From the IMG/VR virus record IMGVR_UViG_3300025418_000694, positions 31,818-95,817 of that record: a stretch of 64,000 bases of DNA. The stretch is one strand, 5' to 3'. This DNA comes from a virus. The notes below the pieces were generated by a model. The model was not told where the DNA came from. It saw only the letters and a program-made list of their open reading frames with translations, and did not search any database. Of this stretch, positions 3,559-30,982 are shown in pieces. Position 1 is the first letter of the stretch; every line of letters begins with the position of its first letter. The translations under genes and the position numbers were made by a program.

Positions 3559-3682
3559 GGACCAATCCTATCATAAGCGCGATGATCCTCACCTTGGGCT
3601 ACTGCCTAACAAACTTAGGTCATACCTGTGGATTTCACCTGGCAGCCATGTCTATTTGTCGACAATTTAACCCTAGGGGGGT

Positions 3683-3721
3683 CTGAGAATAGTCTGAGAA
3701 TAGTCTGAGAATAGGCTGTGA
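3683..3721 (+). repeat. 11-bp-period CTGAGA/CTGTGA array (MprA/PhoP-like boxes)
   Basis: TG of the units at 3684, 3695, 3706, 3717. Confidence 0.85.
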
Positions 3722-3731
3722 ATAATGGGCG

Positions 3732-3757
3732 GGAATAAATAGGTGATAGGTTTGGTT
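3732..3757 (+). promoter_or_regulatory. SigR/SigH-type promoter P1 (sigma gene, autoregulatory)
   Basis: GGAAT 3732-3736, 18 bp, GTT 3755-3757. Confidence 0.8.
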
Positions 3758-3799
3758 CACTAAGCAAGTGAGCAAGGGGCTCACTGATAGGGGTACAAA

Positions 3800-4294
3800 A
3801 TGGACAAGGCACAACTAAGCAAGGACATACTAAACTATCAAGGGATGCTTTATGGTTACGCCATGAAACTAACTAATGGCAATTCACATGACTCTCTCGA
3901 TTTGGTACAGGATACTTTCGAGAAAGCGCTCGCTAATAGTGAGAAGTTTGACGGGGCTAATCTTCAAGCGTGGCTTCACACTATCCTCCGCAATCAATTC
4001 ATCAACGTTTACCGCAAGCAGTCTCGCATGGTAGTGGCTGATGAAACCGCGCTAGTGGAATTAGAAACAGAAACCGCGCCTAGCGCAGAGTACCGCGCAA
4101 TTTTCAATCACTTTTCGCCTAAAGTCTCTCAAGCCTTACAGGCTCTAGGGGATGACTTTCTAAAGGTTGTCTACCTAGTAGACATAGAGGGTTTCACTTA
4201 TGAGGAAACCGCTAATCAACTAGGCGTTAAAACCGCCACAGTAGGCACACGCCTAAACCGCGCACATAAGGTTCTAAGGGAGGCTCTAGCATGA
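3800..4294 (+). CDS. ECF sigma-70 factor, SigH/SigR-like
   Basis: Region 2 LYGYAMKLT..DLVQDTF..NLQAWLHTILRNQFINVYRK and region 4 VYLVDIEGFTYEETANQLG...TVGTRLNRA resemble actinobacterial SigH/SigR. Confidence 0.9.
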   Translation: MDKAQLSKDILNYQGMLYGYAMKLTNGNSHDSLDLVQDTFEKALANSEKFDGANLQAWLHTILRNQFINVYRKQSRMVVADETALVELETETAPSAEYRAIFNHFSPKVSQALQALGDDFLKVVYLVDIEGFTYEETANQLGVKTATVGTRLNRAHKVLREALA

Positions 4295-4383
4295 ACCCAC
4301 TCACAAGCGGACTCCCAATCACAATTCTGTGGTTGGGGGCGAGCATAAGTTTCTACCTACTGATTAGGGACTTAACGAAATAA
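4291..4383 (+). CDS. 30-aa single-pass membrane peptide coupled to the sigma gene
   Basis: ATGA overlap; MNPLTSGLPITILWLGASISFYLLIRDLTK; followed by a hairpin. Confidence 0.55.
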   Translation: MNPLTSGLPITILWLGASISFYLLIRDLTK

Positions 4384-4385
4384 GA

Positions 4386-4409
4386 AGGGGCGCGGGAAAC
4401 CGCGCCTCT
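4386..4409 (+). terminator. hairpin after the sigma operon
   Basis: AGGGGCGCGG-GAAA-CCGCGCCTCT. Confidence 0.6.
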
Positions 4410-4515
4410 CTCTCGATTCCCCGTAGGGGTATGGGGAGGGTGGGCCAACACAAACAATTGGCATTGGGAGCAAGGCATTAGGGAAGTGTTTACAATTCCC
4501 TAAAAGTGTTTATTC

Positions 4516-4579
4516 CTGAGAGATTCCTGAGAATTATCTGGAAATTACCTTAGGGAATAATAACCAACCCTAACCCGTT
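4516..4579 (+). promoter_or_regulatory. 11-bp array plus SigR/SigH-type promoter P2
   Basis: Units at 4517, 4528, 4539; GGAAT 4554-4558, N18, GTT 4577-4579. Confidence 0.8.
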
Positions 4580-4620
4580 ATACAGGTACAAGGTCGGAAA
4601 CGCCGACAAAAGGGGAAAAA

Positions 4621-4911
4621 ATGAACCACTTATACAAAAGCAATTATTCAAGCCTTACTGATGTAGATGTACAGATGGATGTACGCGACAGCACCAACGG
4701 GGATGTCATGTTCGAGATGAACATGTCTAGTTGGCATGATAATAATACCTATCATGTCATGGAGCAATTCATCCTTACAGAGGCGCAGGCGCGCTCACTA
4801 AAAGAAGCACTAGAGACTTATCTAGAGGCTAAGTATGATGAGCGTGAAGCAGTTGCCCTAGCGCAATTTGACGCAGTACGTGACGACCTATTTGAAGTGG
4901 AGGCAGAATAG
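4621..4911 (+). CDS. hypothetical early protein
   Basis: AAGGGG RBS; downstream of P2. Confidence 0.65.
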   Translation: MNHLYKSNYSSLTDVDVQMDVRDSTNGDVMFEMNMSSWHDNNTYHVMEQFILTEAQARSLKEALETYLEAKYDEREAVALAQFDAVRDDLFEVEAE

Positions 4912-5135
4912 TGGAAACACTATCAGCACTAGCAATTAAGAAAGATTCGGTGACTAGAGAAATGCTAGCCAGCGAGTTAGATGAAATGAACGCAGATTCA
5001 CGCGCCTATTGTCTAATGCAGGTAATCGGACACCTAGAGTTAGACAAGGCACAAGGTCAAGAGTTATTCCCACTCTGGACAGCGTGGGTTACTGCTCGCA
5101 GTATTAACAATGACGCTTACGGATTGAGGGACTAA
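4911..5135 (+). CDS. hypothetical early protein
   Basis: Overlap-coupled. Confidence 0.6.
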   Translation: METLSALAIKKDSVTREMLASELDEMNADSRAYCLMQVIGHLELDKAQGQELFPLWTAWVTARSINNDAYGLRD

Positions 5136-5410
5136 TGGGACATAATTTCGCACAAGAATTGGCTAGCGGGGAGTTAACACTCCCCCTAGAGGAGGCTATA
5201 GCGATTCACCTAAGAAGTAATCACTATCCACCCGTACCGCTTTCTATGGTAACCCCCTGTATAGAAGCCATAGATAAATGCAACGAGGGTGATTCTGGCG
5301 CGCTAATAGACTTACCCGATCCAATTAAATGGAAAGGCGCAAGCCAAGCACCAGCGTATGCAGTAATAGAAGGTCATCACTTAGAACCATGGGTTCAATG
5401 GGATGACTAA
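5135..5410 (+). CDS. conserved hypothetical phage protein
   Basis: HLRSNHYPPVP...CIEAI...HHLEPW motif; TAATG coupling. Confidence 0.65.
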   Translation: MGHNFAQELASGELTLPLEEAIAIHLRSNHYPPVPLSMVTPCIEAIDKCNEGDSGALIDLPDPIKWKGASQAPAYAVIEGHHLEPWVQWDD

Positions 5411-5417
5411 CCCCAGA

Positions 5418-5444
5418 TAGGGAGGCTACCCCCTAGCCTCCCTA
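5418..5444 (+). terminator. hairpin after the P2 cassette
   Basis: TAGGGAGGCTA-CCCCC-TAGCCTCCCTA. Confidence 0.6.
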
Positions 5445-5628
5445 ATTTGAAATGCTTGCCAAAAGCAAGGCGTGTTATGCCGCAGCCATAACCGAGGACT
5501 CACTCGAACTGGGATTAAAGCCACCAAATCGGTGGCTTTACTATTTAACTCCCTGACGGCATTGGGTTAGGCATTGACCAACACAAACATTAGGCTTTCG
5601 GGTATTGGCGCAAACTCCCCAAACAAAA

Positions 5629-5702
5629 CTGAGAGATTTCTGAGAATTGGCTGAGAATTGCCTGGAAATAGCGGCGGGAATAAATTGGGGTTATGAGCCG
5701 TT
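5629..5702 (+). promoter_or_regulatory. 11-bp array plus SigR/SigH-type promoter P3
   Basis: Units at 5630, 5641, 5652, 5663; GGAAT 5677-5681, N18, GTT 5700-5702. Confidence 0.8.
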
Positions 5703-5746
5703 ATACAGATGAATAGCCACACGGGTTATTCGGGAAAGGTAATCAA

Positions 5747-5941
5747 ATGCTAACTGATACACAATCTCGCGAGATTAACCATCTCGTATTGCAATTATCT
5801 GCTGATTTAACAGTAGCGCCCGACTTTATAGTTGAGGCTATCCGCGAGGATGAAAGCGTAAACGCGCTAGTCTATCGCTGGCTCACACGTGGGGGAGTGG
5901 AATACCGCTCAATCCTAGACCTACTCAATGGGATGTTCTAA
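5747..5941 (+). CDS. hypothetical early protein
   Basis: GAAAGG RBS after P3. Confidence 0.6.
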   Translation: MLTDTQSREINHLVLQLSADLTVAPDFIVEAIREDESVNALVYRWLTRGGVEYRSILDLLNGMF

Positions 5942-6147
5942 TGATTAAATTCCCACACACAATTAAATTGGTTGCTGAATTAGATGAAAATAATCCAAGC
6001 ACCAAGGCGCTCCAAGCGCTACCAGAATACCTACAGCATAAATTGCTTGAAGAAGCGTTTATTGGAGCACTAAATAGATTAAGCGTGTTTGATACCATAA
6101 ATGAGGGCTCAACATGGGGAATAGTTAAGGTGGATACCAATGGATGA
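5941..6147 (+). CDS. hypothetical early protein
   Basis: TAATG coupling. Confidence 0.6.
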   Translation: MIKFPHTIKLVAELDENNPSTKALQALPEYLQHKLLEEAFIGALNRLSVFDTINEGSTWGIVKVDTNG

Positions 6148-6265
6148 ACAAGCCGAGCGTATCAAGGAGCGCATGTCCGAGGAGTTAGATGACATCCTAG
6201 CCAATGGAGACCTGCAAGCGTTCGAGGAATTATTCGAGGATCGAGACCCGTTCGAATTCCTATAA
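6140..6265 (+). CDS. small acidic protein (41 aa)
   Basis: Read by hand: MDEQAERIKERMSEELDDILANGDLQAFEELFEDRDPFEFL; AAGGTGG RBS. Confidence 0.55.
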   Translation: MDEQAERIKERMSEELDDILANGDLQAFEELFEDRDPFEFL

Positions 6266-6271
6266 CAAAAG

Positions 6272-6304
6272 TGGGGCGGGAATAAAAAGCCCGCCCCAAT
6301 CGTT
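6272..6304 (+). promoter_or_regulatory. SigR/SigH-type promoter P4 embedded in a hairpin
   Basis: GGAAT 6279-6283, N18, GTT 6302-6304; TGGGGCGGG/CCCGCCCCA arms. Confidence 0.75.
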
Positions 6305-6326
6305 ACAGCAACAGAAGGGAGGAAAC

Positions 6327-6659
6327 ATGGAAAATGAAGTAGATGTGCTGCTTAAGCGCCTAAAAGAATTGGGCGTAGAGGCTAAGCCCGTTCGTGTCAA
6401 TGAGCGCCAAAAGGCTACGCTACAAAAAATTGTAGAGGCTGATGTCGCTATTAAAGAAGCGCGGGAAACTATCAAGCAGGCTACAGAAAATTGGCGCGTA
6501 TCTAGGGAAACACTAGACCGCCTATTAGTAGAAGCCCGTAAGATGAAAGTAACCCAAGCAGAAATTGGCAAAGCCCTTGGTATTAGCAATGGCTCTGTAT
6601 CAAGTAGGACAATTACGGCACGCCGTAGAGTCCGTAAAAGAAACCGCACCAAGAAATAA
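6327..6659 (+). CDS. coiled-coil protein with C-terminal HTH
   Basis: GGGAGG RBS before MENEVD; VTQAEIGKALGISNGSVSSR HTH. Confidence 0.7.
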   Translation: MENEVDVLLKRLKELGVEAKPVRVNERQKATLQKIVEADVAIKEARETIKQATENWRVSRETLDRLLVEARKMKVTQAEIGKALGISNGSVSSRTITARRRVRKRNRTKK

Positions 6660-6782
6660 CCGATAAATTTCTGAGGCTATCCGTCGCCAATCGAAGCCGT
6701 AATTGCCTCAGTTCCCCAAAGTAGGTGGTTGGTTCCCACCTGCTAGAGCGCGGGTATACCTTCCCCCCGCGCTCACCCCTAA

Positions 6783-6954
6783 AATGTTTGTGTTGAACCC
6801 GCCCGCCCACATGCCTGAAGGGAATAAGCCAATTGGACAATTGTTAAACAATTGTCCAACACAAACATTCCTAGCCCAAAGTGAACATTAGGTGAACATT
6901 ACCTGAGAGAAACCTGTGAATAGAGATGGGAATAATGAGAGGGTAGTATCCGTT
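6783..6954 (+). repeat. composite regulatory module A (inverted CAACACAAACA boxes, 27-bp palindrome, 11-bp array, promoter P5)
   Basis: Palindrome 6833-6859; units at 6882, 6893, 6904, 6915; GGAAT 6929-6933, N18, GTT 6952-6954. Confidence 0.8.
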
Positions 6955-7002
6955 CTACTATTGAAAGCGAAACCAACCAAGCGCTTTCAGAATAGGACAA
7001 AA

Positions 7003-7386
7003 ATGAACACAACTGACACTCTTACAGTATCAAACGAGTTTACTGTAGGCGAACTATGGGAAGCAGTCTGGGGCTGTGACGGAGCGGGCATGGTCTATTG
7101 GTGCTCTAAAATCCGCACTCCAGAAGGCAAGGACATCTATCTTTTCCTCAACAAAGGTGATGAATTTGTCCCCAACCCTCAACCTGTCAAAATTTATGAC
7201 ACGACAGGCGTTACTCCTAAAACCTACGTGGTAACTGTCGAGGATTTGCGCCGAGGCTACGAACTAGCACTCAAAGCAGGTCAGACACATTGCGGAGGTT
7301 ATCCTCTAGAAATTGACGACGCCGACTCCTGTTTCGGTGACATGGTTATACAGTACGCAATCTTTAACGAATTAGTCTACGGATAG
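7003..7386 (+). CDS. conserved hypothetical phage protein
   Basis: AGGA RBS before MNTTDT; C-terminal D.D..CFGDMVIQYAIFNELVYG signature. Confidence 0.7.
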   Translation: MNTTDTLTVSNEFTVGELWEAVWGCDGAGMVYWCSKIRTPEGKDIYLFLNKGDEFVPNPQPVKIYDTTGVTPKTYVVTVEDLRRGYELALKAGQTHCGGYPLEIDDADSCFGDMVIQYAIFNELVYG

Positions 7387-7397
7387 GAAGGGAAAAC

Positions 7398-7532
7398 ATG
7401 AGCGAAGTAGTATGGCAGAGCCAAATCACAGAGGACATGGTTCAAGATGTAAGCGCCCGTTCGTTCTTATTTGAGGAATTGGACGACGCGGTAATGCGAA
7501 TTTGTCAGGAATACGGGGTAAAATCCCTATGA
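7398..7532 (+). CDS. microprotein (44 aa)
   Basis: Read by hand; GGAAGGG RBS; MSEVVWQSQITED... Confidence 0.55.
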   Translation: MSEVVWQSQITEDMVQDVSARSFLFEELDDAVMRICQEYGVKSL

Positions 7533-7675
7533 GCCGTAGACACTTTCGCGCCCTAGCCGAAGCCCTAAAGGACTCAGGCGCTAGTTATCAGACTGTGGCT
7601 GCTATTGCTAGAGTCTGTGCCAATGAAAACCCAAGATTTGACTCCTCTAAGTTCTTTGAGGCGTGTGGCGTATGA
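7529..7675 (+). CDS. microprotein of the NPRFD..F..AC phage family (48 aa)
   Basis: MSRRHFRALAEAL...NENPRFDSSKFFEACGV; ATGA overlaps. Confidence 0.65.
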   Translation: MSRRHFRALAEALKDSGASYQTVAAIARVCANENPRFDSSKFFEACGV

Positions 7676-7839
7676 CTACCTATAACACAGTAGTGCGCTT
7701 ATACGCCTCAATAGAGGCAGAAACAGAGGAACAAGCAGAGTCAAGACTCCATGACTACATGAATAGCGTGGGTCTAGTTCCTAGTAATTGCGTTGTAGTC
7801 GCCGATTATGACGTAACAGACTTCGACAAGGAGGATTGA
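7672..7839 (+). CDS. microprotein (55 aa)
   Basis: ATGA overlap; MTTYNTVVRLYASIEAETEEQA. Confidence 0.55.
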   Translation: MTTYNTVVRLYASIEAETEEQAESRLHDYMNSVGLVPSNCVVVADYDVTDFDKED

Positions 7840-7939
7840 CGGAGACTAGCCGAGCCTGTCCTAGCCGTAATTGTATCCGTCAAGGGCGGTGGGAAGTAAA
7901 AAGCCCACCGCTATACAAAAAGCGCGGAAATGTCTAAAT

Positions 7940-8121
7940 TGTTTGTGTTGACCCACCCACCCACGTACCTAAATACGACATCTTATTCCGCAATAAGCGG
8001 AATAAGCATTTGGGCTAATTGTTTAACAATTAGCCCAACACAAACATTCCCGCCCCAAGATGAACATTAGATGAACATTAACTGAGAGATTGCTGAGAGA
8101 TTACTGAGAGAAGGCTGAGAG
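7940..8121 (+). repeat. composite regulatory module B (homologue of A)
   Basis: Palindrome 8010-8038; six units at 8061, 8072, 8083, 8094, 8105, 8116. Confidence 0.8.
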
Positions 8122-8272
8122 CCAATCTATAGTAGAGTGAGAGTCTGCTATAGATTAAAAATGGACACGCCTTCGGCTACTGTCTAAAGAACGAAGTGAG
8201 AGTGTAGCGATACGTCCAGATTATTGCTATATGTCCGATTTGTCTTATATGATAACAATCTCTGCGATTACT

Positions 8273-8335
8273 GTTCACCTTCCGTTCACCTTCCGTTCAT
8301 CTACTTAGGGGAATATATATCTACTCTATTCCGTT
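8273..8335 (+). promoter_or_regulatory. triple PHO-box-like repeat plus SigR/SigH-type promoter P6
   Basis: GTTCA(C/T)C at 8273, 8284, 8295; GGAAT 8310-8314, N18, GTT 8333-8335. Confidence 0.75.
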
Positions 8336-8394
8336 CTATCCATGTACGACAAACACTAACCGCGCCAATGGCGCACTATTAGAAGGAAGGCAGT

Positions 8395-9774
8395 ATGACA
8401 CTAGCAGTATTGGTGGAGACCTTAGAGGGCGAAGCGCGCTCACAGACTCTCCTATTCCCTCACAAGGGAGAAGTGCGGATTTATCACCGCCTCTCAACAG
8501 GTCAGGCAGGACGTGGACAGACATGGTCTCACCTATCTGATATAGAGGATTTGCCCGACACTCTCCTATCCAAGAAACCCGTAGCCGTTGTCCTCACCGA
8601 GCGCGATACTGCTCTCGTTGATACAGGACTCGTTACCAATATCGGTGCTAAGGCTCTCTATGCCTATGAAAGTGCCGACCCTGTTACCGCGCCAATCTCA
8701 CACAGAGATAGCGTTCTAGACCTTAAAACTCGATTCGAGTCAGGAGACAACTCTCTCTCTGATTTGATTACCGATAAACGTCGTAATCAGGGTGTAATTC
8801 TAACCCCGTTGAGCGCGACCCCGAACGTGACCTTTATTAAGCAAAGTGAGCCTATCAAGCAAGAAGTAACAATAGGCGCACACGAAAGCACACGTCTCGC
8901 CTATGAAAATATGATTACTGTTCCCGACCAAAAGTGGTCACGTGATTATATAAACCGCTACTTTGAGGACGGCAAGTCCGACTTCGAGATTTATGACTAC
9001 GCAGATTCTAACGATATAAACGTTCTAATCGAAGGTGGCGCTGGTTCAGGCAAGACCATGAGTGTAATCGCCTATGCCTCTGCTAGACAGAAGCGTTATT
9101 TCAACGTCTCCTCTAATGCTGGTATTGACCCTAGCCAACTATTCGGGCGCTGGATTCCTAGAGAGGACGGACATGGTTATCGCTGGCAGGACGGCGCAGT
9201 CACTCTCCTAGTTCGACATGGCGGAGTTCTACTCCTCAATGAAGTGAACTTCATGCCCGAACGTATTATGACAGTTCTCTATTCCTTACTAGATGACCGA
9301 CGTGAGATTCAATTATTGGATAACGGCGGTGAGGTTATTAAGGCTCACAAAGACCTGCTAATCGTGGCAGACATGAACGCTGGTTATCGTGGCACTCACG
9401 AACTATCACAGGCTAACAATGACAGGTGGAAAATTAAACTAGAGTTTCCTTACGATAAGAAAATCGAAAGCAAACTAATCAAGTCTAAGGCTCTGCTGGA
9501 ATTGGCTCAAAAGTTACGTGACCGATTCGACCTAGATGAACTCACAACTCCAATCTCGACACGTGGTCTAGTAGCACTACAAAATAACGTGACGGGTCTA
9601 GGCTTGAACTTCGCAATTACTTCTTACGTCAATGGATTCGACAAAGATGAACGCGTGGCAGTTCGTCAGGTAATCGAAACAATGAAGTGGAATATCGCAA
9701 CCGACTTCGGTGTAAAGGTTGAAGTCGAACCTACAGATTCAATCGTAACCGAGACAGTAAAGGTGGATAACTAA
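8395..9774 (+). CDS. MoxR/CbbQ/CobS-like AAA+ ATPase
   Basis: Walker A GGAGSGKT, variant Walker B LLLNEVN, LSQANNDR, ISTRGL. Confidence 0.9.
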   Translation: MTLAVLVETLEGEARSQTLLFPHKGEVRIYHRLSTGQAGRGQTWSHLSDIEDLPDTLLSKKPVAVVLTERDTALVDTGLVTNIGAKALYAYESADPVTAPISHRDSVLDLKTRFESGDNSLSDLITDKRRNQGVILTPLSATPNVTFIKQSEPIKQEVTIGAHESTRLAYENMITVPDQKWSRDYINRYFEDGKSDFEIYDYADSNDINVLIEGGAGSGKTMSVIAYASARQKRYFNVSSNAGIDPSQLFGRWIPREDGHGYRWQDGAVTLLVRHGGVLLLNEVNFMPERIMTVLYSLLDDRREIQLLDNGGEVIKAHKDLLIVADMNAGYRGTHELSQANNDRWKIKLEFPYDKKIESKLIKSKALLELAQKLRDRFDLDELTTPISTRGLVALQNNVTGLGLNFAITSYVNGFDKDERVAVRQVIETMKWNIATDFGVKVEVEPTDSIVTETVKVDN

Positions 9775-9775
9775 T

Positions 9776-11734
9776 ATGGGTCGCCGTCGCCGTCGCAATA
9801 ATGGACTAATCTCTGAATTGGATTCCCTATCCACAGGACGTGGACTCCATGAACGTATCAACGATAACAATGAGTGGGAACTCTATGATGAGGAAAGCGG
9901 TTTAGCAGTAACCCATGCCGAACTAGTCGCAAAATACACAGAGCGCGCTAACCGACTCAATGCGGTGGCACAGGTGTACGAACGTGTAGATAGGATTCTC
10001 ACCAATGAGGATATTACTGTTCGTGTAATCAACGATAAGAATATGGATACCAATGCCCGTTCCAATGGAAAGGATATTGAACTCAATGCCAATCTAATTG
10101 AGGATTTATCTGACGAAAGTATTATGAGCCTTCATGGTCTGAACTATCACGAACTAGCGCACGTGGAGTTCTCTCCCCGTCAGGGTTCAGACTTAGGAAT
10201 ATACGTTCGCGATAATAAACTGTTTAAGGCAATCGCAATTCTAGAGGAAGGTCGCGCTGAACAATTACTGCTCAAAAAGTATCCTTCAATTCGACCTTAC
10301 CTAGAAGCAAGTGTTTATACCTACGTGTTAGCAGACCAGCCTAGTGATTGGGGAACTAAGTTTCATCTAATCACAGGTCGCACCTACTTACCACTAGAAA
10401 TTAGGCAATCTATTCTAGACAAAGCAATCGTTCAATACGGATATGAAATTGTCTCCAACGTTCACTCGATTATCCATGCCTATCGTGACTTAGTGTTCCC
10501 TGCTGATTTCGATAAGGCTAAAGAACTCGCACACAGACTCGCCAATATACTCGGACATGATGAGGATTCTAATAATTCAGGTTCAAGTTCTAGTGAAGGT
10601 TCAGAGGAGTCTAAGGACTCAAAAGGTATCACAGGTGTAGGCGGTGGGTGCGGTCTGCCTAGTAAGGGCAGACCAGCAAGCGGAAAGGAGCAGGCTAAGT
10701 ATCAAAGCCAGCCCTCTAATGATAAATTAGAAAGCCTCAACACAAACAGGTCGCAAAGCGATAGCGGTTCAGGTAGCGAAATTGAAACTCAATCGGTCAA
10801 TGATTCAGATTCAGAAATTACTGCCAAAGATGTTGAAGTGGCTCATGCTCTCAATGAGCGCATGAACCAACTAAAGCAGGACTCTCGCGTTAAGCGCGAA
10901 GTCAAGGACACTCGAAATGCGATTCTCGGTTCAGGTGAGGCTAAGGCTGATATTCCAACAGGTGACACTATGGAAATCGCACCTTCTATGGGAGCAATCT
11001 CAATGGCAAAGCGATTCAGCACAGAGTTAGAACGCATAGTGCGAAACAATGACCCTGCTTGGGTAGGTCGCACTAGAAGTGGTCGCCTGAATATCTCTCG
11101 CACCATGAACCCTGATGTCAATGCTATCTCTGAAATGTTCGACCAATGGGATATTGGTAATGAAGCCACCGATATAGAAGCGGTTATCCTTACCGATAAT
11201 TCAGGTTCAATGGGCGGTTCAATGAAAGCAGTATGCGAGAACACTTGGATTCTAAAGCGCGCTATCGAAAGCATAGAAGGTTCAGTAACCGCCTTCTCCT
11301 TCGATTCTGATACTGAACTGCTCTACTCTAAAGATGATAAGGCTAAGTCTAGAGTAATGAAGTTCGTGGGTTCACGTGGAAGCACTAACCCACTACGCGG
11401 AATTATCGAAGCAGACCGCATATTGACCTCATCTAAAAAGTCAATCAAGATTCTATTTATAGTTACTGACGGGGATTGGGAGCGCCAAGAACAATGCGAC
11501 GACCTAATCAAGTCTATGAACAATAAGGGATTCCTGACGTGCGTAGTGTTCTTAGGTGATTTCAAGTCCTATCAGAACCTAATCGAGCAGTCTGCTAGAG
11601 GTGATGACCGCGCTACTAATTACTTAAAGGCAATACGTCACCACGCCAAAGTGTTCCACGCTGTTACCAACACCGCAGATATTCTCAAAGTGGCAAGTAT
11701 GCTAGTCAAATCAACTCTAAAGAAGGTGGCTTAG
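9776..11734 (+). CDS. vWA (MIDAS) partner of MoxR with N-terminal HExxH domain
   Basis: YHELAHV; Ser-rich linker; DNSGSMG, GSTNP, VTDG. Confidence 0.85.
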   Translation: MGRRRRRNNGLISELDSLSTGRGLHERINDNNEWELYDEESGLAVTHAELVAKYTERANRLNAVAQVYERVDRILTNEDITVRVINDKNMDTNARSNGKDIELNANLIEDLSDESIMSLHGLNYHELAHVEFSPRQGSDLGIYVRDNKLFKAIAILEEGRAEQLLLKKYPSIRPYLEASVYTYVLADQPSDWGTKFHLITGRTYLPLEIRQSILDKAIVQYGYEIVSNVHSIIHAYRDLVFPADFDKAKELAHRLANILGHDEDSNNSGSSSSEGSEESKDSKGITGVGGGCGLPSKGRPASGKEQAKYQSQPSNDKLESLNTNRSQSDSGSGSEIETQSVNDSDSEITAKDVEVAHALNERMNQLKQDSRVKREVKDTRNAILGSGEAKADIPTGDTMEIAPSMGAISMAKRFSTELERIVRNNDPAWVGRTRSGRLNISRTMNPDVNAISEMFDQWDIGNEATDIEAVILTDNSGSMGGSMKAVCENTWILKRAIESIEGSVTAFSFDSDTELLYSKDDKAKSRVMKFVGSRGSTNPLRGIIEADRILTSSKKSIKILFIVTDGDWERQEQCDDLIKSMNNKGFLTCVVFLGDFKSYQNLIEQSARGDDRATNYLKAIRHHAKVFHAVTNTADILKVASMLVKSTLKKVA

Positions 11735-11854
11735 GTGTTCTTTATAGTATCTATGGGGCTAATTCTAGTAATAGCGTTAGCCCTAATCATAACTGAAGTA
11801 GATGATTCACTGAAGGACGAGTGGGAAGCGTGGGAAAGGAAACAGAAATGGTAA
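11735..11854 (+). CDS. small membrane protein (39 aa)
   Basis: Read by hand: MFFIVSMGLILVIALALIITEVDDSLKDEWEAWERKQKW. Confidence 0.5.
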   Translation: MFFIVSMGLILVIALALIITEVDDSLKDEWEAWERKQKW

Positions 11855-12027
11855 TTCAATTCGGAACTAGCGCGGATAATCTAGATTATGCCGTACTACA
11901 GAAGGAAACGCTGAACCAATTAAAGGGCGCACTACTAGCAGAGCAGACTCGCAACGAGTATCTAATCAACTTAGTGGACACCGCTATTGACTACTCGTTC
12001 TATTTAACAGATGAAAGGATTAAATAA
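11848..12027 (+). CDS. hypothetical protein
   Basis: GAAAGGA RBS before MVIQFG. Confidence 0.55.
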   Translation: MVIQFGTSADNLDYAVLQKETLNQLKGALLAEQTRNEYLINLVDTAIDYSFYLTDERIK

Positions 12028-12267
12028 ATGAGCGAACACCACTTTGTAATCAAGTTCAACACAAACAATGGGCGGTTCGATTGGGATTCAGATACCGAGT
12101 CGGCTCGATTCCCCGAAGGCGCTATCTATCTTTCAGAGGTCAATAAATGGGTGGATTCCTCATATAACGATTCTCTGAACCAAATAGACACACAAGCAGG
12201 TGAGGCGCTTAGTCAAACCCTAAACGTATTAAACCTGATGTACGAACAAGCAGGAAACAAGGAATAA
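12028..12267 (+). CDS. hypothetical protein
   Basis: AAAGGA RBS; adjacent to the upstream stop. Confidence 0.6.
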   Translation: MSEHHFVIKFNTNNGRFDWDSDTESARFPEGAIYLSEVNKWVDSSYNDSLNQIDTQAGEALSQTLNVLNLMYEQAGNKE

Positions 12268-12286
12268 AAGTAAAGAGTCAAATGTT
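12261..12286 (+). promoter_or_regulatory. SigR/SigH-type promoter P7
   Basis: GGAAT 12261-12265, N18, GTT 12284-12286. Confidence 0.65.
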
Positions 12287-12315
12287 ATATAGAGATATAA
12301 AGAGAGGAATAAATA

Positions 12316-12621
12316 ATGCCACACCCACTAAGCGGTCTAACGCCCGACGAAAAGCGTAAGTTATTCAAGATGTTCGAGATTATGTCTGAACCTAGTGATA
12401 CTTCACATGAGGACATGATGTACGTCGTGAATAACGTTAGTCCTATGGTCGAGATACTAAAGAAAACTATCAGCAATCGCATGATAGATAGCGGTATCAG
12501 CGCAGAGGAAACAGACGCTCTATTAAGTACGTTGATAGGAGTATCTAATATGGCTGGCGGTGTTAGTTTCGCCGACTTCGCCCACACAGAAAGCATGGCA
12601 GAGGATTTATCAGATAACTAG
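12316..12621 (+). CDS. hypothetical protein
   Basis: GAGGA RBS. Confidence 0.65.
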   Translation: MPHPLSGLTPDEKRKLFKMFEIMSEPSDTSHEDMMYVVNNVSPMVEILKKTISNRMIDSGISAEETDALLSTLIGVSNMAGGVSFADFAHTESMAEDLSDN

Positions 12622-12622
12622 A

Positions 12623-12803
12623 GTTGGATAGACACTTGGATAAGATAGACCTAATCTAACTACCAACAGACTTCAAGTTAGTCACATGAACAGTTTAATT
12701 ACTTAGTAATAAGACTCCGAGTAAGTTGAGGTATCAGGGTCGCAAAGACGAAAGGACTTGCGAAGGAGTTAGTTCCTAAACGTTGTACCTAGTGTCTATC
12801 TAC
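12623..12803 (+). ncRNA. candidate structured non-coding RNA (~180 nt)
   Basis: Intergenic; closing helix GATAGACACT/AGTGTCTATC plus nested helices CTAACT/AGTTAG, ACTTCAA/TTGAGGT, TCGCAA/TTGCGA. Confidence 0.5.
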
Positions 12804-12830
12804 GCAATCTAATCGAAAGAAGGTAAGTAA

Positions 12831-13121
12831 ATGGGAATAGTAAGTCCCGAACTCGCTCACAGATACGAGCGTGAGTTAGTAGGCTCTACTCTAATTAACG
12901 AGTATGGCGACACTATCGTTAAGGCTAAACACCTTAAAGATAATACGTTTCTAGTCATAGCGGTAAGACCCGTAAAGACTAATCCGTACCAAGTATCAAA
13001 GGTAATCTATATTTCAGAGGACTTCTTAAACCCCTACAACGAAACAGGGGCAGAGACTTTGGAAGAAGCAGAAATTATATTTAATGAAAGGATTGAAAGT
13101 GGCAAAATACTCAATAGTTAA
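12831..13121 (+). CDS. hypothetical protein, paralogue of 13278..13595
   Basis: YERELVG...KAKHL...VIAVR...TLEEAE shared. Confidence 0.65.
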   Translation: MGIVSPELAHRYERELVGSTLINEYGDTIVKAKHLKDNTFLVIAVRPVKTNPYQVSKVIYISEDFLNPYNETGAETLEEAEIIFNERIESGKILNS

Positions 13122-13278
13122 AACTGTTACTTACGATTTGGAAGCCGTAATCTATTCTGATTTATCAGAGGACGAACTAAAGCAGAGTCTAAAGCATGAT
13201 GATTCAGATGTTGAGTACGAACAAATAGAGGGTAATGATGTTCAGTTCTATCTAGATTTATTAGAGGACGACGAGTAA
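13084..13278 (+). CDS. small acidic protein
   Basis: D/E-rich; start may be the GTG at 13099. Confidence 0.55.
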   Translation: MKGLKVAKYSIVKTVTYDLEAVIYSDLSEDELKQSLKHDDSDVEYEQIEGNDVQFYLDLLEDDE

Positions 13279-13595
13279 TGTCTAATAAACTTACAGACCT
13301 GTACGAAAAAGAAATGGTAGGCGCTGAACTTACGAATAAAGCGGTGGTAATCAAATCTAAACACCTAGAGGGCAGTAAGTATATTGTCCTTGCCGTTCGT
13401 AAAGTTCCAGCAGAACCTCTCTATGATGAGCGAGATGTTGAGAAAACAACTCCTATTTATCACCGCCCATATATTGTATGGCAGGTGGATAAAAAGACTA
13501 TGCGACCTATGAGTGGAGAGTATGCTCTGACACTAGAGGAAGCAGAGGAAGTCTATGAAATATATGGGAATAAAAAGAAGTTCTTAATCGTTTAA
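13278..13595 (+). CDS. hypothetical protein, paralogue of 12831..13121
   Basis: YEKEMVG...KSKHL...VLAVR...TLEEAE. Confidence 0.65.
   Translation: MSNKLTDLYEKEMVGAELTNKAVVIKSKHLEGSKYIVLAVRKVPAEPLYDERDVEKTTPIYHRPYIVWQVDKKTMRPMSGEYALTLEEAEEVYEIYGNKKKFLIV
13567..13592 (+). promoter_or_regulatory. SigR/SigH-type promoter P8
   Basis: GGAAT 13567-13571, N18, GTT 13590-13592, at the 3' end of the upstream gene. Confidence 0.7.
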
Positions 13596-13621
13596 TAACT
13601 AATCGAAGGGAGTTGCCTACA

Positions 13622-14104
13622 ATGGGCATGGACGTATATGGAAAGAACGCTACGGACGAACGTGGCGAGTACTTTAGAAACAATGTATGGTGGTGGAGAC
13701 CACTATGGGACTACTGCGAGCAGGTCTATCCACCTTGTCGTGAGATAGACGGACACTCAAATAGCGGTGCTGGCTTTGATGTAGAAGGCGCACACGCACT
13801 ACGCGACGCACTTATTAAAGAGATTAGTAGTGGTCGCACCTATGAATATGAGAAAGAACGCCAAGAGTTCTTAGATTCTATTCCTGATGAGACTTGTACC
13901 TTATGTGAAGGCATGGGAATAGTTCAAGTTAAAGAGGGCTGGTTCGATTACGTAGAGGGAGAAGTTACCTTCCGCGACCCATGTAATGCCTGTAATGGAA
14001 CTAAGGTCAAGAGACCTTTCGAGTGTAATTATGGATTCAGCGTAGAGAACGTAAAAGAGTTCTGCCAATTCCTAACTACCTGCGGTGGATTCGAGATTTG
14101 CTAA
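13622..14104 (+). CDS. conserved phage protein with DnaJ-type CxxCxGxG zinc finger
   Basis: MGMDVYG...GEYFRNNVWWWRPLW; CTLCEGMG, CNACNGTK. Confidence 0.75.
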   Translation: MGMDVYGKNATDERGEYFRNNVWWWRPLWDYCEQVYPPCREIDGHSNSGAGFDVEGAHALRDALIKEISSGRTYEYEKERQEFLDSIPDETCTLCEGMGIVQVKEGWFDYVEGEVTFRDPCNACNGTKVKRPFECNYGFSVENVKEFCQFLTTCGGFEIC

Positions 14105-14334
14105 TGAATAACGAGACCTTATCAGAGAGCGTTTCTACGCATGGCAATCTTTCAAGGGGATTAGCCGACACACTTTCAGAAATTATGGGCAGACCTGTCA
14201 CACACTTAGCAGTTATCTCTGCCTTATCTATTGAAGGAATAAAGTTAGATATAGATACAGAAGGAATATCCTCTATTGCTATGGAATACGGAACTCATCT
14301 CCTTCACAAAAGTAGAAGTGAGGAAGATGAATAA
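14098..14334 (+). CDS. hypothetical protein
   Basis: Packed ORF. Confidence 0.5.
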   Translation: MLMNNETLSESVSTHGNLSRGLADTLSEIMGRPVTHLAVISALSIEGIKLDIDTEGISSIAMEYGTHLLHKSRSEEDE

Positions 14335-14550
14335 TGAGCCTGTGTAATTGGTGCGGAGATGAAATGAAAGAAGGATTATGGGAATCCCATATCTGTATAG
14401 ACTCTGAAAGTGAAAGTAAATAATGGATAGATGTATAAATTGTGGTTATGAAATAGATGAAGCAGTAAGCGACCCAACAGGTATGTGTCAGACCTGTTGG
14501 TGGGCTTATGACAAGGGCTATCAAAAAGCAAAACAGGAAGCGAGCGAATA

Positions 14551-14913
14551 ATGATTAAAGAATTAGATACAGACGAAGTTCTGTTGGCTATGAAGCACTA
14601 CAAGCCTGTGAACTATATGGAAGCCCTTAGAAAACAAGCGCCCAATGGCACTAGCCTATTAACGGGAGAGAACAACGCTATATTCGTTCAGTTCCCTGCC
14701 TTCATGGAGTTGCCTGACCTAATGATTAGTTTATTAGAACAAGACACTCACACTTGGAAATGGATTAGTTTGGGCAATAATCAAGAGTATGAAGGCGTAA
14801 TAAAGTTTAAGGGCGGTAGTGAGAAGCCTAGTGATGAGGAGTTCTACGAGATGTCCGAGTATCTAGCCCTAAACTTTTGGAAGCAAGCAAGGAAGCAAAT
14901 GAGGTTCAAGTAA
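14551..14913 (+). CDS. hypothetical protein
   Basis: 120-aa ORF on the coding strand of the island. Confidence 0.6.
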   Translation: MIKELDTDEVLLAMKHYKPVNYMEALRKQAPNGTSLLTGENNAIFVQFPAFMELPDLMISLLEQDTHTWKWISLGNNQEYEGVIKFKGGSEKPSDEEFYEMSEYLALNFWKQARKQMRFK

Positions 14914-15113
14914 TGTCTAATATAAAGAGAGCAATCGAATCTATTATAGAGTGCGAGTCCTGTAGTGGTCAGGGCTGGCATTTCTACGGAGACGACGAAA
15001 TGTGGGACGTGGAGTCCTGTGATTGTAACCCTCACTCTATTGACATAGAGGAGATTGAGGACTATAAATTACGTATGGGCATGGACGCGTACCGCAATTT
15101 AATGGAAGAATAA
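14913..15113 (+). CDS. small Zn-finger-like protein
   Basis: TAATG start MSNIK; CESCSGQG...CDCNP. Confidence 0.55.
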   Translation: MSNIKRAIESIIECESCSGQGWHFYGDDEMWDVESCDCNPHSIDIEEIEDYKLRMGMDAYRNLMEE

Positions 15114-15189
15114 ACCTTCGCTATGGGTTGATGAAACCTTAGGGATTAAGTAGTCAGCACCATAGCGAAATCTATTAAGGAGTAATTTA

Positions 15190-15597
15190 ATTCAGACTTT
15201 CTTGCCCGCTCCTGATTTCAAGGAGTGCGCCCGTATTCTTGATTACCGCAGGTTAGGTAAGCAGAGAGTTGAGGCATATCAAATACTAAATACCCTACGT
15301 GGGGAGAGTCTTGGCTGGCGCAATCATCCTGCCGTAAAGATGTGGGCTGGTTACGAGCCAGCACTTAAACAATACGGGAGAGAGATGTGCCTAGAGTGGA
15401 GAGCGCGTGGGTACAAGGACAATATGCTCGAAAGGTTTGTGTTGGACGCGCCCGTCGTGTTGCCAACATGGTTAGGGGATAGTAGGCTTCATATATCCCA
15501 CCAATCAAATCTAATAAGGAAAGACCCCGAATACTACAAAGACAAGTTTCCAAATGTACCCGCAGACCTGCCGTACTTTTGGATTACGAAAGGATAA
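15190..15597 (+). CDS. pyrimidine-dimer DNA glycosylase / MSMEG_6728-family protein (probable ATT start)
   Basis: QTFLP...LDYRRLGKQRVEAYQIL...WRNHPAVKMW...SHQSNLIRKDP. Confidence 0.85.
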   Translation: MQTFLPAPDFKECARILDYRRLGKQRVEAYQILNTLRGESLGWRNHPAVKMWAGYEPALKQYGREMCLEWRARGYKDNMLERFVLDAPVVLPTWLGDSRLHISHQSNLIRKDPEYYKDKFPNVPADLPYFWITKG

Positions 15598-15600
15598 TAA

Positions 15601-15876
15601 ATGGCTAAACCAATGGAAACAATGAAAGCAACTCTAATCAAGAATACGAGTAAAGGTGGAGCATGGCTTCTCAATTACCAGTTTATTCTTGATGGAACTG
15701 TGCGCCACGATACTACGCAGGCTTGGGCTAACCCTTCCGCAGCAAAGCGCGCTCTAAAAGAAATCGTATTGAGAGAAACACCTCGCAAGTCGATTAAAAT
15801 GATTGCTAACAGGCAAGATGAGAACGACAAGCCAATCTCCTTTATTGGAGAGATTAACTATCGACCACTAAATTAG
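15601..15876 (+). CDS. hypothetical protein
   Basis: AAAGGA RBS. Confidence 0.6.
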   Translation: MAKPMETMKATLIKNTSKGGAWLLNYQFILDGTVRHDTTQAWANPSAAKRALKEIVLRETPRKSIKMIANRQDENDKPISFIGEINYRPLN

Positions 15877-16312
15877 GGAGAGAGAGAAAGAGAGAAATGG
15901 TTGATGACGACCCTTTTGATGAAGATATAGATATTGAAGAAGATTGGATTGAGGAAGATGACGAAGAAGAAGTCGAGTGGGAAGATGAAGAAGATTTCGG
16001 AGAGTATATTGGAGAGTAATCCCAATTACGTTACAGTAGAGGAGTTTACTCAAAGATACGCCAATGCTCTTGGCGGTTATCTAGCAGGGTCTTTTCCTAA
16101 TGGAGAGACTCACGTAGTAGATTTAATGGTAAGCGCTTCCTGTTTTGCTGAAGCGTCGTTCTATTTGTTTGATAACTTCTTTTAGTAGAAACCACAGAAG
16201 GGCGTTAAAGCGCTTTCCTGCCTTTCCACGCTAAGGGCGGTCATGACCTTGTAATTGTTTTTTATCATATTTTGGGCAATTACAGGCGAGCCGTACCTGC
16301 GCCTTATGTGAG

Positions 16313-16343
16313 AAACCCCCCGATTCGTTCACGGGGGGTTTTA
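16313..16343. terminator. bidirectional terminator at the convergent junction
   Basis: AAACCCCCC-N11-GGGGGGTTT between the plus island and nrdJ. Confidence 0.7.
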
Positions 16344-16347
16344 CTAT

Positions 16348-30664: not shown

Positions 30665-30982
30665 TCACGACTCTTTGGTTAATACCCACTCCTTTAGTGT
30701 CATACCTGCGCGTGTCGCCTTACGCTTAAGGGCATTACGCTCACGGTGACTCATGCCACCCCAAATTCCGTGCGTGTCTTCCATCTCCTCCGCATACAGT
30801 AAGCACTGCTTACGTACGGGGCATTCAGGAAGACCGTCTTTACCGTAGCAAATAGCTTTTGCTCGGTCAGCAATATCTTTATATTGGTCTTTATCTCTTG
30901 GCGGGTACCAAGTATTAGTGTCTATTCCTCGACACTTGGCTTTGTATCTCCAAGGTTCTGGTCCGAGATCTTCGTCGTACAA
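30665..30982 (-). CDS. whiB: WhiB-family Fe-S transcription regulator
   Basis: WRYKAKC...AKAIC...CPVRKQC...GIWGGMSHRER. Confidence 0.92.
   Translation of the reverse strand: MYDEDLGPEPWRYKAKCRGIDTNTWYPPRDKDQYKDIADRAKAICYGKDGLPECPVRKQCLLYAEEMEDTHGIWGGMSHRERNALKRKATRAGMTLKEWVLTKES

What the first reader, a model, noticed from the sequence alone, without database searches (positions are those of the whole stretch)
3732..13592. Phage-encoded SigH/SigR-like sigma factor with its own eight-promoter regulon
Seen: eight exact GGAAT-N18-GTT elements on the plus strand, with GGAAT at 3732, 4554, 5677, 6279, 6929, 8310, 12261 and 13567. Each lies about 20-60 nt upstream of a start codon, and the first precedes the sigma gene itself. 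Known: GGAAT-N18-GTT is the Streptomyces SigR consensus and is close to the mycobacterial SigH/SigE consensus, and the 164-aa sigma resembles SigH/SigR in regions 2 and 4. Inference: the whole plus-strand island is transcribed from stress-sigma promoters. Host SigH/SigE could prime it, and the phage sigma would then lock it on by positive feedback and might also redirect the host SigH regulon.
Basis: partly seen in the sequence, partly recalled or inferred. Interest (0 to 1): 0.9.

Follow-up and report, generated by a model that had tools for sequence, protein, structure and literature searches.

The report
Phage ECF sigma with SigH-type promoters
An uncultured freshwater phage of actinobacteria carries its own small sigma factor and eight copies of the promoter type normally read by the host's heat and oxidative-stress sigma (SigH/SigR), so it probably runs a 12-kb accessory gene block through a self-reinforcing, stress-like transcription switch; this is inferred from sequence only.

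Summary
Eight exact GGAAT-N18-GTT sites sit at the stated coordinates, all on the + strand and all inside the genome's main + strand gene block (3800-16185). Each lies 22-59 nt before a Shine-Dalgarno sequence and ATG, and the first precedes the sigma gene. A weight matrix separates them (20.5-26.3 bits) from every other site in the 95.8-kb genome (16.4 or less). The motif matches the experimentally defined SigH consensus and the SigH promoters I found in 29 of 34 actinobacterial sigH loci. The phage has whiB, so its host is an actinobacterium. The sigma is a true ECF sigma but not a SigH orthologue: it scores 108.7 bits (cut-off 251.55), lies outside the SigH clade on a long branch, and has no ZAS anti-sigma. 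Two related phages add comparative evidence. One has a 38%-identical sigma with the same self-promoter and three more sites. The other is complete, has no sigma detected, and keeps similar promoter modules, which implies that a host sigma can read them. A conserved 30-aa membrane peptide is translationally coupled to the sigma. Nothing has been tested experimentally. This scan has already noted SigH-type promoter sets in other actinophages, so this is a variant of a recurring theme.

The parts
3683..3726 (+). Four 11-bp phased CTGAGAATAGT-type units ending 5 bp before the -35 of P1
   Evidence: Tandem repeat, period 11, 4 copies; sequence read; the same kind of array stands before promoters in G414 and G415
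3732..3757 (+). P1, predicted ECF promoter of the sigma gene (GGAATAAA-N14-GGTT); the weakest of the eight
   Evidence: 20.5 bits; leave-one-out 14.5; G414 has an equivalent site about 55 nt before its sigma gene
3800..4294 (+). ECF sigma factor, 164 aa (regions 2 and 4 only)
   Evidence: Pfam Sigma70_r2 57.1 bits and r4_2 32.8 bits; TIGR02937 88 bits against a 42.9 cut-off, TIGR02947 SigH 108.7 bits against 251.55; best PDB match is M. tuberculosis SigH; separate long-branch lineage together with the G414 sigma
4291..4383 (+). 30-aa single-pass membrane peptide, overlapping the sigma stop codon (ATGA)
   Evidence: Conserved with a 33-aa peptide in the same position in G414 (A3, 53% identity, core NPL.SGLPIT..WLGA); not found in any other fetched locus
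4389..4406 (+). GC-rich hairpin ending the sigma transcription unit
   Evidence: GGCGCGG-GAAA-CCGCGCC; the fold of 4375-4425 gives -23.6 kcal/mol; one search lists the same palindrome at 4406-4389 as a terminator-like site on the - strand
4516..4548 (+). CTGAGA array before P2
   Evidence: metagenome contigs share it up to 4540 and then diverge into other GGAATAAA promoters
4554..4579 (+). P2, promoter of the three small genes 4621-5410
   Evidence: 24.7 bits
5629..5672 (+). CTGAGA array before P3
5677..5702 (+). P3, promoter of the three small genes 5747-6265
   Evidence: 26.3 bits, the best site
6279..6304 (+). P4, promoter of the small HTH gene; its -35 lies in the loop of the hairpin GGGGCGGG/CCCGCCCC that ends the previous unit
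   Evidence: 24.6 bits; fold (-21.2 kcal/mol)
6327..6659 (+). 110-aa protein with a sigma region 4-like helix-turn-helix, conserved in all three phages
   Evidence: Pfam Sigma70_r4 29.5 bits; homologues in G414 (49%) and G415 (24%) (A4)
6903..6924 (+). Two CTGAGA-type units before P5, preceded in phase by two GTGAACATTA units
   Evidence: Sequence read
6929..6954 (+). P5, promoter of the genes 7003-7839
   Evidence: 24.6 bits
8273..8299 (+). GTTCACCTTCC array (2.5 copies, period 11) before P6
8310..8335 (+). P6, promoter of the MoxR-like ATPase / VWA operon (8395-12267)
   Evidence: 23.6 bits; AAA_5 and VWA domains
12261..12286 (+). P7, promoter of the genes 12316-13595; overlaps the end of the preceding ORF
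   Evidence: 20.8 bits
13567..13592 (+). P8, promoter of the genes 13622-16185; lies inside the 3' end of ORF 13278-13595
   Evidence: 23.3 bits

Best explanation
The eight gGGAATA(A/T)-N14-(C)GTT elements are ECF-type promoters of the SigH/SigR class. They divide the 12.4-kb + strand accessory block into about eight short transcription units: sigma plus peptide; three sets of small genes; a small HTH protein; MoxR-VWA; and two further sets. Most units are separated by hairpins. The proposed mechanism has three steps. (1) On infection of an actinobacterial host, host RNA polymerase carrying the host's own SigH-type sigma gives a first low level of transcription, including from P1. (2) P1 drives the phage ECF sigma, which has no ZAS anti-sigma of its own and is therefore probably outside the host's redox control. 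(3) The phage sigma reads the same promoter class, raises its own synthesis through P1, and turns on P2-P8. The 11-bp phased arrays just upstream of four of the promoters probably bind a further regulator that modulates this. Shown from sequence: the motif, its strand and position specificity, its match to SigH promoters, the ECF nature of the sigma, the self-promoter, and its recurrence in a second phage. Inferred: who reads the promoters, the feedback loop, and escape from the anti-sigma.
For: The motif is enriched, confined to one strand and always upstream of genes. It matches the published SigH consensus, -35 gGGAAta / -10 (t/c)GTT, with T at -31 marking SigH-specific promoters (PMC10012870). 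Controls: 29 of 34 true sigH loci have a sense-strand GGAA(T/C)-N17-19-GTT (1 of 34 on the antisense strand), and three loci from 1.2-1.5 Mb genomes read GGAATAAAGG...GTGTT, the same extended -35 as the phage. The host is an actinobacterium: whiB is present (whiB is used as the marker in PMC6802176), and the DNA polymerase and tail sheath are nearest to Streptomyces phages. The sigma is an ECF sigma nearest to SigH, and its region 2 follows SigH. Phage G414 has a 38%-identical sigma with a self-promoter, three more sites on the same strand and the same peptide. Ten related contigs without a sigma lack the motif. G415 keeps the promoter modules with no sigma detected, which argues that a host sigma can read them. 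SigH is near-universal in the class (278 of 301 genomes). No second promoter-like dyad was found that the sigma could serve instead.
Against: There is no transcript or biochemical evidence. The host is not identified. The sigma is not a SigH orthologue, and its region 4.2 has Gly at the position said to read -31/-30, so its promoter specificity cannot be read off from SigH. The G415 sites differ somewhat (GGAATAG...GGTT), and their total count in that genome is not above its control pattern. The sigma's nearest cellular relatives show no consistent promoter of this type (3 of 75). P1 is the poorest match of the eight. The comparative set is small: three phages.
Confidence: 0.5

Rival explanations
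1. Host SigH alone reads the promoters. The island is a set of stress-tied accessory genes borrowed onto the host stress regulon, and the phage sigma has another job, for example competing with host sigmas or reading host genes.
For: G415 has the promoter modules with no sigma detected. The motif is identical to host-type SigH promoters. The phage sigma lies outside the SigH clade and differs in the recognition helix. Earlier notes of this scan describe sigma-less actinophages with the same promoter type (unchecked).
Against: ECF sigmas commonly drive their own gene, and here a site stands directly before the sigma gene in two phages whose sigmas are only 38% identical. No other enriched promoter-like motif is available for the sigma. 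Sigma and motif occur together in two of the three array-bearing phages, and both are missing from ten other relatives.
Confidence: 0.2
2. Only the phage sigma reads the promoters, and the first sigma transcripts come from a housekeeping (SigA-type) promoter. One candidate is the extended -10-like TGATAGGTT that lies inside the P1 spacer, paired with a divergent TGATAGGAT at 3573 on the other strand.
For: P1 alone contains a TGnTAnnnT element (3744-3752), and a near-identical one faces the leftward genes. P1 departs from the consensus exactly where this element lies. Phages normally start infection from housekeeping promoters (general knowledge).
Against: The word is only weakly over-represented (4 sites; 2 of 100 shuffles reach 4), and two of the four are ribosome-binding-site contexts. 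This reading does not explain how the sigma-less G415 uses its sites. The P1 of G414 has no such element.
Confidence: 0.2
3. The elements are not promoters. They are binding sites for a phage DNA-binding protein (such as the small HTH protein), or conserved junctions of mobile gene cassettes.
For: The small HTH protein with a sigma region 4-like fold is conserved in all three phages. Metagenome contigs break and rejoin at the array/-35 boundary, so the modules mark mosaic junctions.
Against: The two-block structure with a fixed 18-nt gap, the constant orientation, and the 22-59 nt distance to SD+ATG are what promoters show. The blocks match an experimentally defined promoter class base for base. 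Being a recombination junction and being a promoter do not exclude each other.
Confidence: 0.05

Closest known systems
SigH (Mycobacterium, Corynebacterium) / SigR (Streptomyces) regulons, ECF12-type, with the ZAS anti-sigmas RshA/RsrA
   Same: The promoter architecture is the same: GGAAT-N18-GTT with the extended gGGAATa and (c/t)GTT (PMC10012870; my controls). The sigma gene is autoregulated. The sigma is a two-domain ECF protein whose best family and best structural match is SigH.
   Different: The phage sigma is at most 41% identical to SigH, scores far below the family cut-off, and lies outside the SigH clade. There is no ZAS partner; a 30-aa membrane peptide takes that position. The regulon consists of phage accessory genes, not thiol and heat-stress genes.
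Phage-encoded sigma factors with their own promoter sets, e.g. phiEco32 and Salmonella phage 7-11
   Same: The phage brings a divergent sigma-70-family protein, and a well-conserved, low-copy promoter stands before sets of phage genes (PMC4331800).
   Different: In those phages the promoters are phage-specific (tAATGTAtA) and drive middle and late genes, including structural genes, after host RNA polymerase is shut off by a phage anti-sigma. Here the promoter equals a host stress-sigma consensus, serves only a 12-kb accessory block, includes the sigma's own gene, and the structural and replication genes lack it.
Host-like sigma factor homologues in Bacillus phages (sigF/sigG-like)
   Same: The phage carries a sigma resembling a specific host alternative sigma, which could act on the host's matching regulon (PMC9429907).
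   Different: Those are group 3 sporulation sigmas, shown to activate host sporulation genes and to be dispensable for phage growth. No phage-borne promoter set for them is described in the passages I read. Here the sigma is an ECF sigma with eight matching promoters on the phage itself.
SigH-type promoter sets in other actinophages noted earlier in this scan (unchecked AI notes)
   Same: Multiple GGAAT-N18-GTT sites before small accessory or early genes of actinobacterial phages, some with and some without a phage sigma.
   Different: I did not examine those genomes. Here three related phages are compared, two with the sigma and one without, and there is a coupled peptide and phased upstream arrays.

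Membership tests
ECF (group 4) sigma factors | Only regions 2 and 4 of sigma-70; score above the family threshold | tested here: met
   Pfam Sigma70_r2 57.1 bits, r4_2 32.8 bits and Sigma70_ECF 23.5 bits, with no region 1.1 or 3. TIGR02937 88.0 bits against a 42.9 cut-off.
SigH/SigR orthologues (ECF12-type; NCBIfam TIGR02947) | Score above the curated cut-off of the family model | tested here: not met
   108.7 bits against a 251.55 cut-off. True orthologues score 299-383 bits, and non-SigH paralogues in the same genomes about 100-108 bits.
SigH/SigR orthologues (ECF12-type; NCBIfam TIGR02947) | Groups inside the SigH clade in a tree | tested here: not met
   The 36 SigH rows are monophyletic without the phage sigmas (SH-aLRT 94). 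The two phage sigmas pair with each other (89) on branches of 2.45 and 3.46. Their deeper placement is unresolved, and this was a quick tree with long branches.
SigH/SigR orthologues (ECF12-type; NCBIfam TIGR02947) | Co-transcribed zinc-binding (HxxxCxxC) anti-sigma factor | tested here: not met
   No zf-HC2 match anywhere in the 95.8-kb genome. The downstream gene is a 30-aa membrane peptide. All 34 true sigH loci have the motif downstream.
SigH/SigR orthologues (ECF12-type; NCBIfam TIGR02947) | Target promoters GGAA(T/C)-N17-19-GTT, often including one at its own operon | tested here: inconclusive
   The sequence pattern is met: eight sites, including one before the sigma gene, repeated in G414. 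That this sigma actually reads them is not shown.
SigH/SigR orthologues (ECF12-type; NCBIfam TIGR02947) | Activation by thiol-oxidative or heat stress through release from the anti-sigma | not testable with these tools
   Needs experiments. No RNA run holding this DNA was listed.
Phage sigma regulons of the phiEco32 / 7-11 kind | Phage sigma plus a conserved promoter before middle and late (structural) genes, with a phage inhibitor of host RNA polymerase | tested here: not met
   The motif is absent from the 83 kb of replication and structural genes. No homologue of that system was sought or seen. The definition is taken from PMC4331800.

The most novel reading that the evidence does not exclude
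The sigma and its translationally coupled 30-aa membrane peptide form a portable two-gene cassette. It lets a phage fire host-type SigH promoters without waiting for the host's redox-sensing anti-sigma to release SigH. The same cassette would also switch on the host's own SigH regulon (thioredoxins, chaperones, proteases) for the phage's benefit. The peptide would act as a new, minimal regulator or membrane tether of an ECF sigma. Sister phages without the cassette depend on host stress instead.
Probability: 0.2. Interest if true: 0.75.

Novelty: new variant of a known kind. Interest (0 to 1): 0.55.

Why it matters
Phage-encoded sigma factors are classically divergent proteins with phage-specific promoters for late genes. 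Here an ECF sigma appears to work on a promoter class that the host already uses for its stress response, and it is wired to its own gene. If this holds, a phage is plugging into a host stress circuit and probably escaping its control. The natural comparison of two phages with the sigma and one without makes the question testable: which polymerase form reads these promoters, and what does the extra sigma buy? The hosts are probably abundant freshwater actinobacteria, whose phage biology is almost unexplored experimentally. The coupled 30-aa peptide could be a new kind of ECF partner. The compact promoter and sigma pair might also serve as an orthogonal expression part for actinobacteria.

Tried and rejected
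2. Searching IMG/VR with the sigma protein found no relative. The one metagenome scan found nothing above 42% identity. The relatives were reached only through a DNA pattern for the upstream arrays.
3. The sigma's nearest cellular ECFs (36-41% identity) turned out to be a mixed set without a consistent promoter or ZAS partner. Nearest-neighbour transfer of specificity was therefore dropped.
4. No RNA holder was listed among the public runs, so transcript starts could not be examined.
5. Laying contigs of four DNA runs gave useful junctions, but the table of differences was cut (447 rows not shown). A test of whether substitutions avoid the -35/-10 boxes was therefore not possible.
6. The complex prediction of sigma with the 30-aa peptide gave no verdict (score 0.02). 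It counts neither way.
7. Host identification failed. WhiB gave only about 35% hits in Nocardia, Rhodococcus and Streptomyces. A class-wide search with the phage ribonucleotide reductase found nothing and gave no taxon names.
8. The first whole-genome dyad search was dominated by 9-nt collagen-like repeats in a tail-fibre-like gene. One script call gave no answer.
9. A housekeeping-type promoter for the sigma gene: simple consensus scans found none upstream of P1. The embedded TGATAGGTT is only weakly supported.
10. Rfam found no known RNA family in the window.
11. My first pattern sent to the genome search had one N too many and is not used.

Full report
**What the window is**

The window is the last 64 kb of a 95,817-bp IMG/VR virus record rated 100% complete. 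The genome has 44% GC, a contractile-tail gene set, a family A DNA polymerase and a class II-type ribonucleotide reductase. The DNA polymerase and tail sheath are nearest, at 36-41% identity, to BRock-like Streptomyces myoviruses.

The genome carries a WhiB gene (62.2 bits; window 30665-30982, - strand). Published work uses whiB as the marker for actinobacterial hosts (PMC6802176). The DNA is held by about 20 freshwater metagenome runs. So this is an uncultured freshwater actinophage whose exact host is unknown.

Almost all genes lie on the - strand. The main exception is a 12.4-kb + strand block at 3800-16185; the only other + strand genes are three at -27494..-25282 and a few isolated short ORFs.

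**The observation**

The window holds ten matches, against a mean of 2.18 and a maximum of 6 in shuffles.

Over the whole genome there are nine + strand and two - strand matches. Eight of the nine + strand sites fall inside the + strand block. The remaining three matches are what chance predicts, and they depart from the extended consensus.

The eight sites share positions that the pattern did not require: gGGAATA(A/T) and (C)GTT-n-TA. A weight matrix scores them at 20.5-26.3 bits, and the best other site in 191 kb of two-strand sequence scores 16.4. Leave-one-out scores run from 14.5 to 25.5, with P1 the weakest.

Each site is followed after 22-59 nt by a Shine-Dalgarno sequence and an ATG. 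GC-rich hairpins lie after the first five gene sets, that is before P2-P6; P7 and P8 instead overlap the 3' ends of the preceding ORFs. The block therefore reads as about eight short transcription units. At P4 the -35 box sits in the loop of the hairpin that ends the unit before it.

**What kind of promoter it is**

The corynebacterial SigH consensus, defined by transcript mapping, in vivo reporters and in vitro transcription, is -35 gGGAAta and -10 (t/c)GTT with an 18-19 nt gap. SigE needs GGAAC, and GGAAT promoters are SigH-specific (PMC10012870).

I checked this on fetched genomes:
- The Streptomyces sigR locus has GGAAT-N18-GTT upstream and an RsrA-type gene downstream.
- A Nocardia sigH locus and two SigE-like loci have GGAAC-N18-GTT plus a ZAS gene.
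- Among 34 true sigH loci, 29 have the motif on the sense strand at or before sigH, against 1 on the antisense strand. All 34 have HxxxCxxC downstream.
- In three loci from 1.2-1.5 Mb genomes the site reads GGAATAAAGG...GTGTT, which is the phage's own extended -35.

The phage elements are therefore indistinguishable from genuine SigH promoters.

**The sigma**

The 164-aa protein has regions 2 and 4 only and passes the general ECF model. Its best specific family is SigH_actino. It scores 108.7 bits against a cut-off of 251.55. True orthologues score 299-383 bits, and the next-best, non-SigH ECFs in the same genomes score about 100-108 bits.

The best solved relative is M. tuberculosis SigH (81.7 bits), with SigE at 72.7 bits. 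Identity to 34 SigH orthologues has a median of 38% and a maximum of 41%.

Region 2 (NLxAWL..IL.N..IN.YRK) follows SigH rather than SigE. Region 4.2 is mixed and has Gly where SigH has Met and SigE has Arg. That is the residue modelled to read positions -31/-30.

In a quick maximum-likelihood tree, the phage sigma and its G414 relative pair together (support 89) on very long branches. They sit outside a monophyletic SigH clade (support 94) and outside the nearest metagenomic ECFs (support 98). Their deeper placement is open.

No ZAS anti-sigma is present anywhere in the genome, and there is only one sigma gene. The protein is thus SigH-like but not a SigH orthologue.

**Relatives**

Protein searches with the sigma found no phage relative. 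Ten related contigs were reached through the MoxR-like ATPase (about 50% identity) or the DNA polymerase (66-76%). None has a sigma or an enriched motif.

Contigs from four lake metagenomes share the CTGAGA array up to position 4540. They then continue into different DNA that again begins with GGAATAAA. A DNA pattern for the arrays then recovered two informative genomes.

G414 (87.6 kb, 92% complete):
- It has an ECF sigma 38% identical to this one.
- GGAATAAATTGGGTGTAGTGTCCGTT stands about 55 nt before that sigma gene.
- Three more sites follow on the same strand, each with SD+ATG, before the contig ends. One of them precedes the small HTH gene.
- It also has the same arrays and boxes.

G415 (95.8 kb, terminal repeats, 100% complete):
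- It has the same island type: DUF932, HTH, DUF3846, MoxR and VWA genes.
- It has the same arrays and boxes.
- Three sites read GGAATAG-N16-GGTT and each stands about 45 nt before SD+ATG. A fourth site, GGAATAAA...CGTT, is not followed by SD+ATG within 70 nt.
- No sigma was detected by protein, Pfam or TIGRFAM searches.

So sigma and self-promoter recur together across deep sequence divergence, and the promoter class also survives without the sigma. This is the main reason I favour dual reading by host SigH and the phage sigma.

SigH orthologues were found in 278 of 301 sampled genomes of the class, including about twenty of 1.2-1.5 Mb.

Those tallies include six unpublished genomes (G048, G044, G275, G055, G036, G019). 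One locus from G048 (L272) is among the 34 loci and in the tree. Removing it would change the counts by one and no conclusion.

**New parts**

The sigma stop codon overlaps (ATGA) the start of a 30-aa hydrophobic peptide. G414 has a 33-aa counterpart in the same arrangement, with the shared core NPL.SGLPIT..WLGA. The peptide occurs in no other fetched locus. It sits where ECF operons usually encode the anti-sigma. Its role is unknown.

Four promoters (P1, P2, P3, P5) are preceded by 11-bp phased CTGAGA-type units that end 4-5 bp before GGAAT. P6 is preceded by GTTCACCTTCC units. The arrays also occur in G414 and in the sigma-less G415, so they do not depend on the sigma.

A 110-aa protein with a sigma region 4-like helix-turn-helix is conserved in all three phages. 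It is one candidate binder of the arrays.

**Verdict**

The sigma belongs to a separate, fast-evolving phage ECF lineage with a small membrane peptide in place of a ZAS partner. SigE is an unlikely primer.

I give 0.5 to the dual-reading, positive-feedback model, 0.2 to host-only reading, 0.2 to phage-sigma-only reading with housekeeping priming, and 0.05 to non-promoter readings.

Published precedents are phage sigmas with phage-specific late promoters (PMC4331800) and host-like sporulation sigmas in Bacillus phages (PMC9429907). The freshwater actinophage papers I read do not mention sigma factors.

Earlier notes of this scan report SigH-type promoter sets in several other actinophages, so the theme recurs. 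This case adds a natural comparison of phages with and without the sigma, and the coupled peptide.

Noticed in passing
window 4291-4383 (+); L248:8990-9091 (+): A 30-33 aa single-pass membrane peptide overlaps the sigma stop codon (ATGA) in both sigma-bearing phages. It has a conserved core NPL.SGLPIT..WLGA and is absent from all other fetched loci. It sits in the slot where anti-sigma genes usually lie.
   Followed up: partly
window 4446, 5579, 6785(-), 6857, 7940(-), 8036, 10738, 12057; also L015-L017, L024, L025, L027-L029, L248, L250: The box CAACACAAACA (11 sites in the window at up to one mismatch, against 1.7 expected) recurs in related phages that have neither the sigma nor the GGAAT motif. 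It often occurs as inverted pairs around a palindrome. It is probably an older operator of this phage group.
   Followed up: partly
window 6821-6846 and 7999-8024 (+): Two GGAAT-N17-GTT variants (weight-matrix scores 16.4 and 9.6) lie in twin modules. Each is overlapped by a perfect palindrome (ggacaattgttaaacaattgtcc and gggctaattgtttaacaattagccc). They may be repressible weak promoters.
   Followed up: no
window 8082-8260: A CTGAGAGATTG array (3.6 copies) is not followed by an ECF promoter. After it come the inverted repeat TCTATAG...CTATAGA and a sigma-70-like TTGCTA-N18-TATGAT (8224-8253). No ORF of 40 aa or more lies between the array (from 8082) and 8223. This could be a separate regulatory unit or a small RNA. 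Rfam found nothing.
   Followed up: no
L250 (G415), reverse-complement positions about 3975-4030, 4970-5025 and 7270-7325; L015, L018, L024, L026 upstream of the MoxR gene: CGTTAT(C) repeats about 11 bp apart stand between the CTGAGA array and the -35 box in G415, and upstream of the MoxR homologues of sigma-less relatives. Some relatives also have GGTTGT repeats there. The upstream arrays appear to be swapped as modules between phages.
   Followed up: no
window 4540 (also 5556 and 7937): Contigs from four lake metagenomes match up to the end of the CTGAGA array and then continue into unrelated sequence that starts with another GGAATAAA box. The promoter modules therefore mark mosaic junctions between co-occurring phages.
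   Followed up: partly
window 3744-3752 (+) and 3565-3573 (-): Near-identical extended -10-like words lie back to back in the divergent region: TGATAGGTT inside the P1 spacer and TGATAGGAT facing the leftward genes. They may be housekeeping promoters, but the statistics are weak.
   Followed up: partly
genome positions before the window: window -20619..-16231 (-): A 1462-aa gene holds about 70 units with 9-nt periodicity (CAAGG-N15-AGG), that is collagen-like Gly-X-Y repeats. It is probably a tail fibre.
   Followed up: no
window 8395-11734 (+): A MoxR-like AAA+ ATPase (AAA_5) and a 652-aa protein with a weak VWA match form the largest operon of the island. Homologues at about 50% identity are widespread in related freshwater phages.
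   Followed up: no
window 16186-16347: The convergent gap between the island and the ribonucleotide reductase gene folds into a long, stable structure (-59.7 kcal/mol over 171 nt) that ends in a GGGGGG/CCCCCC hairpin with a T-run. Another note of this scan proposes a non-coding RNA here.
   Followed up: no
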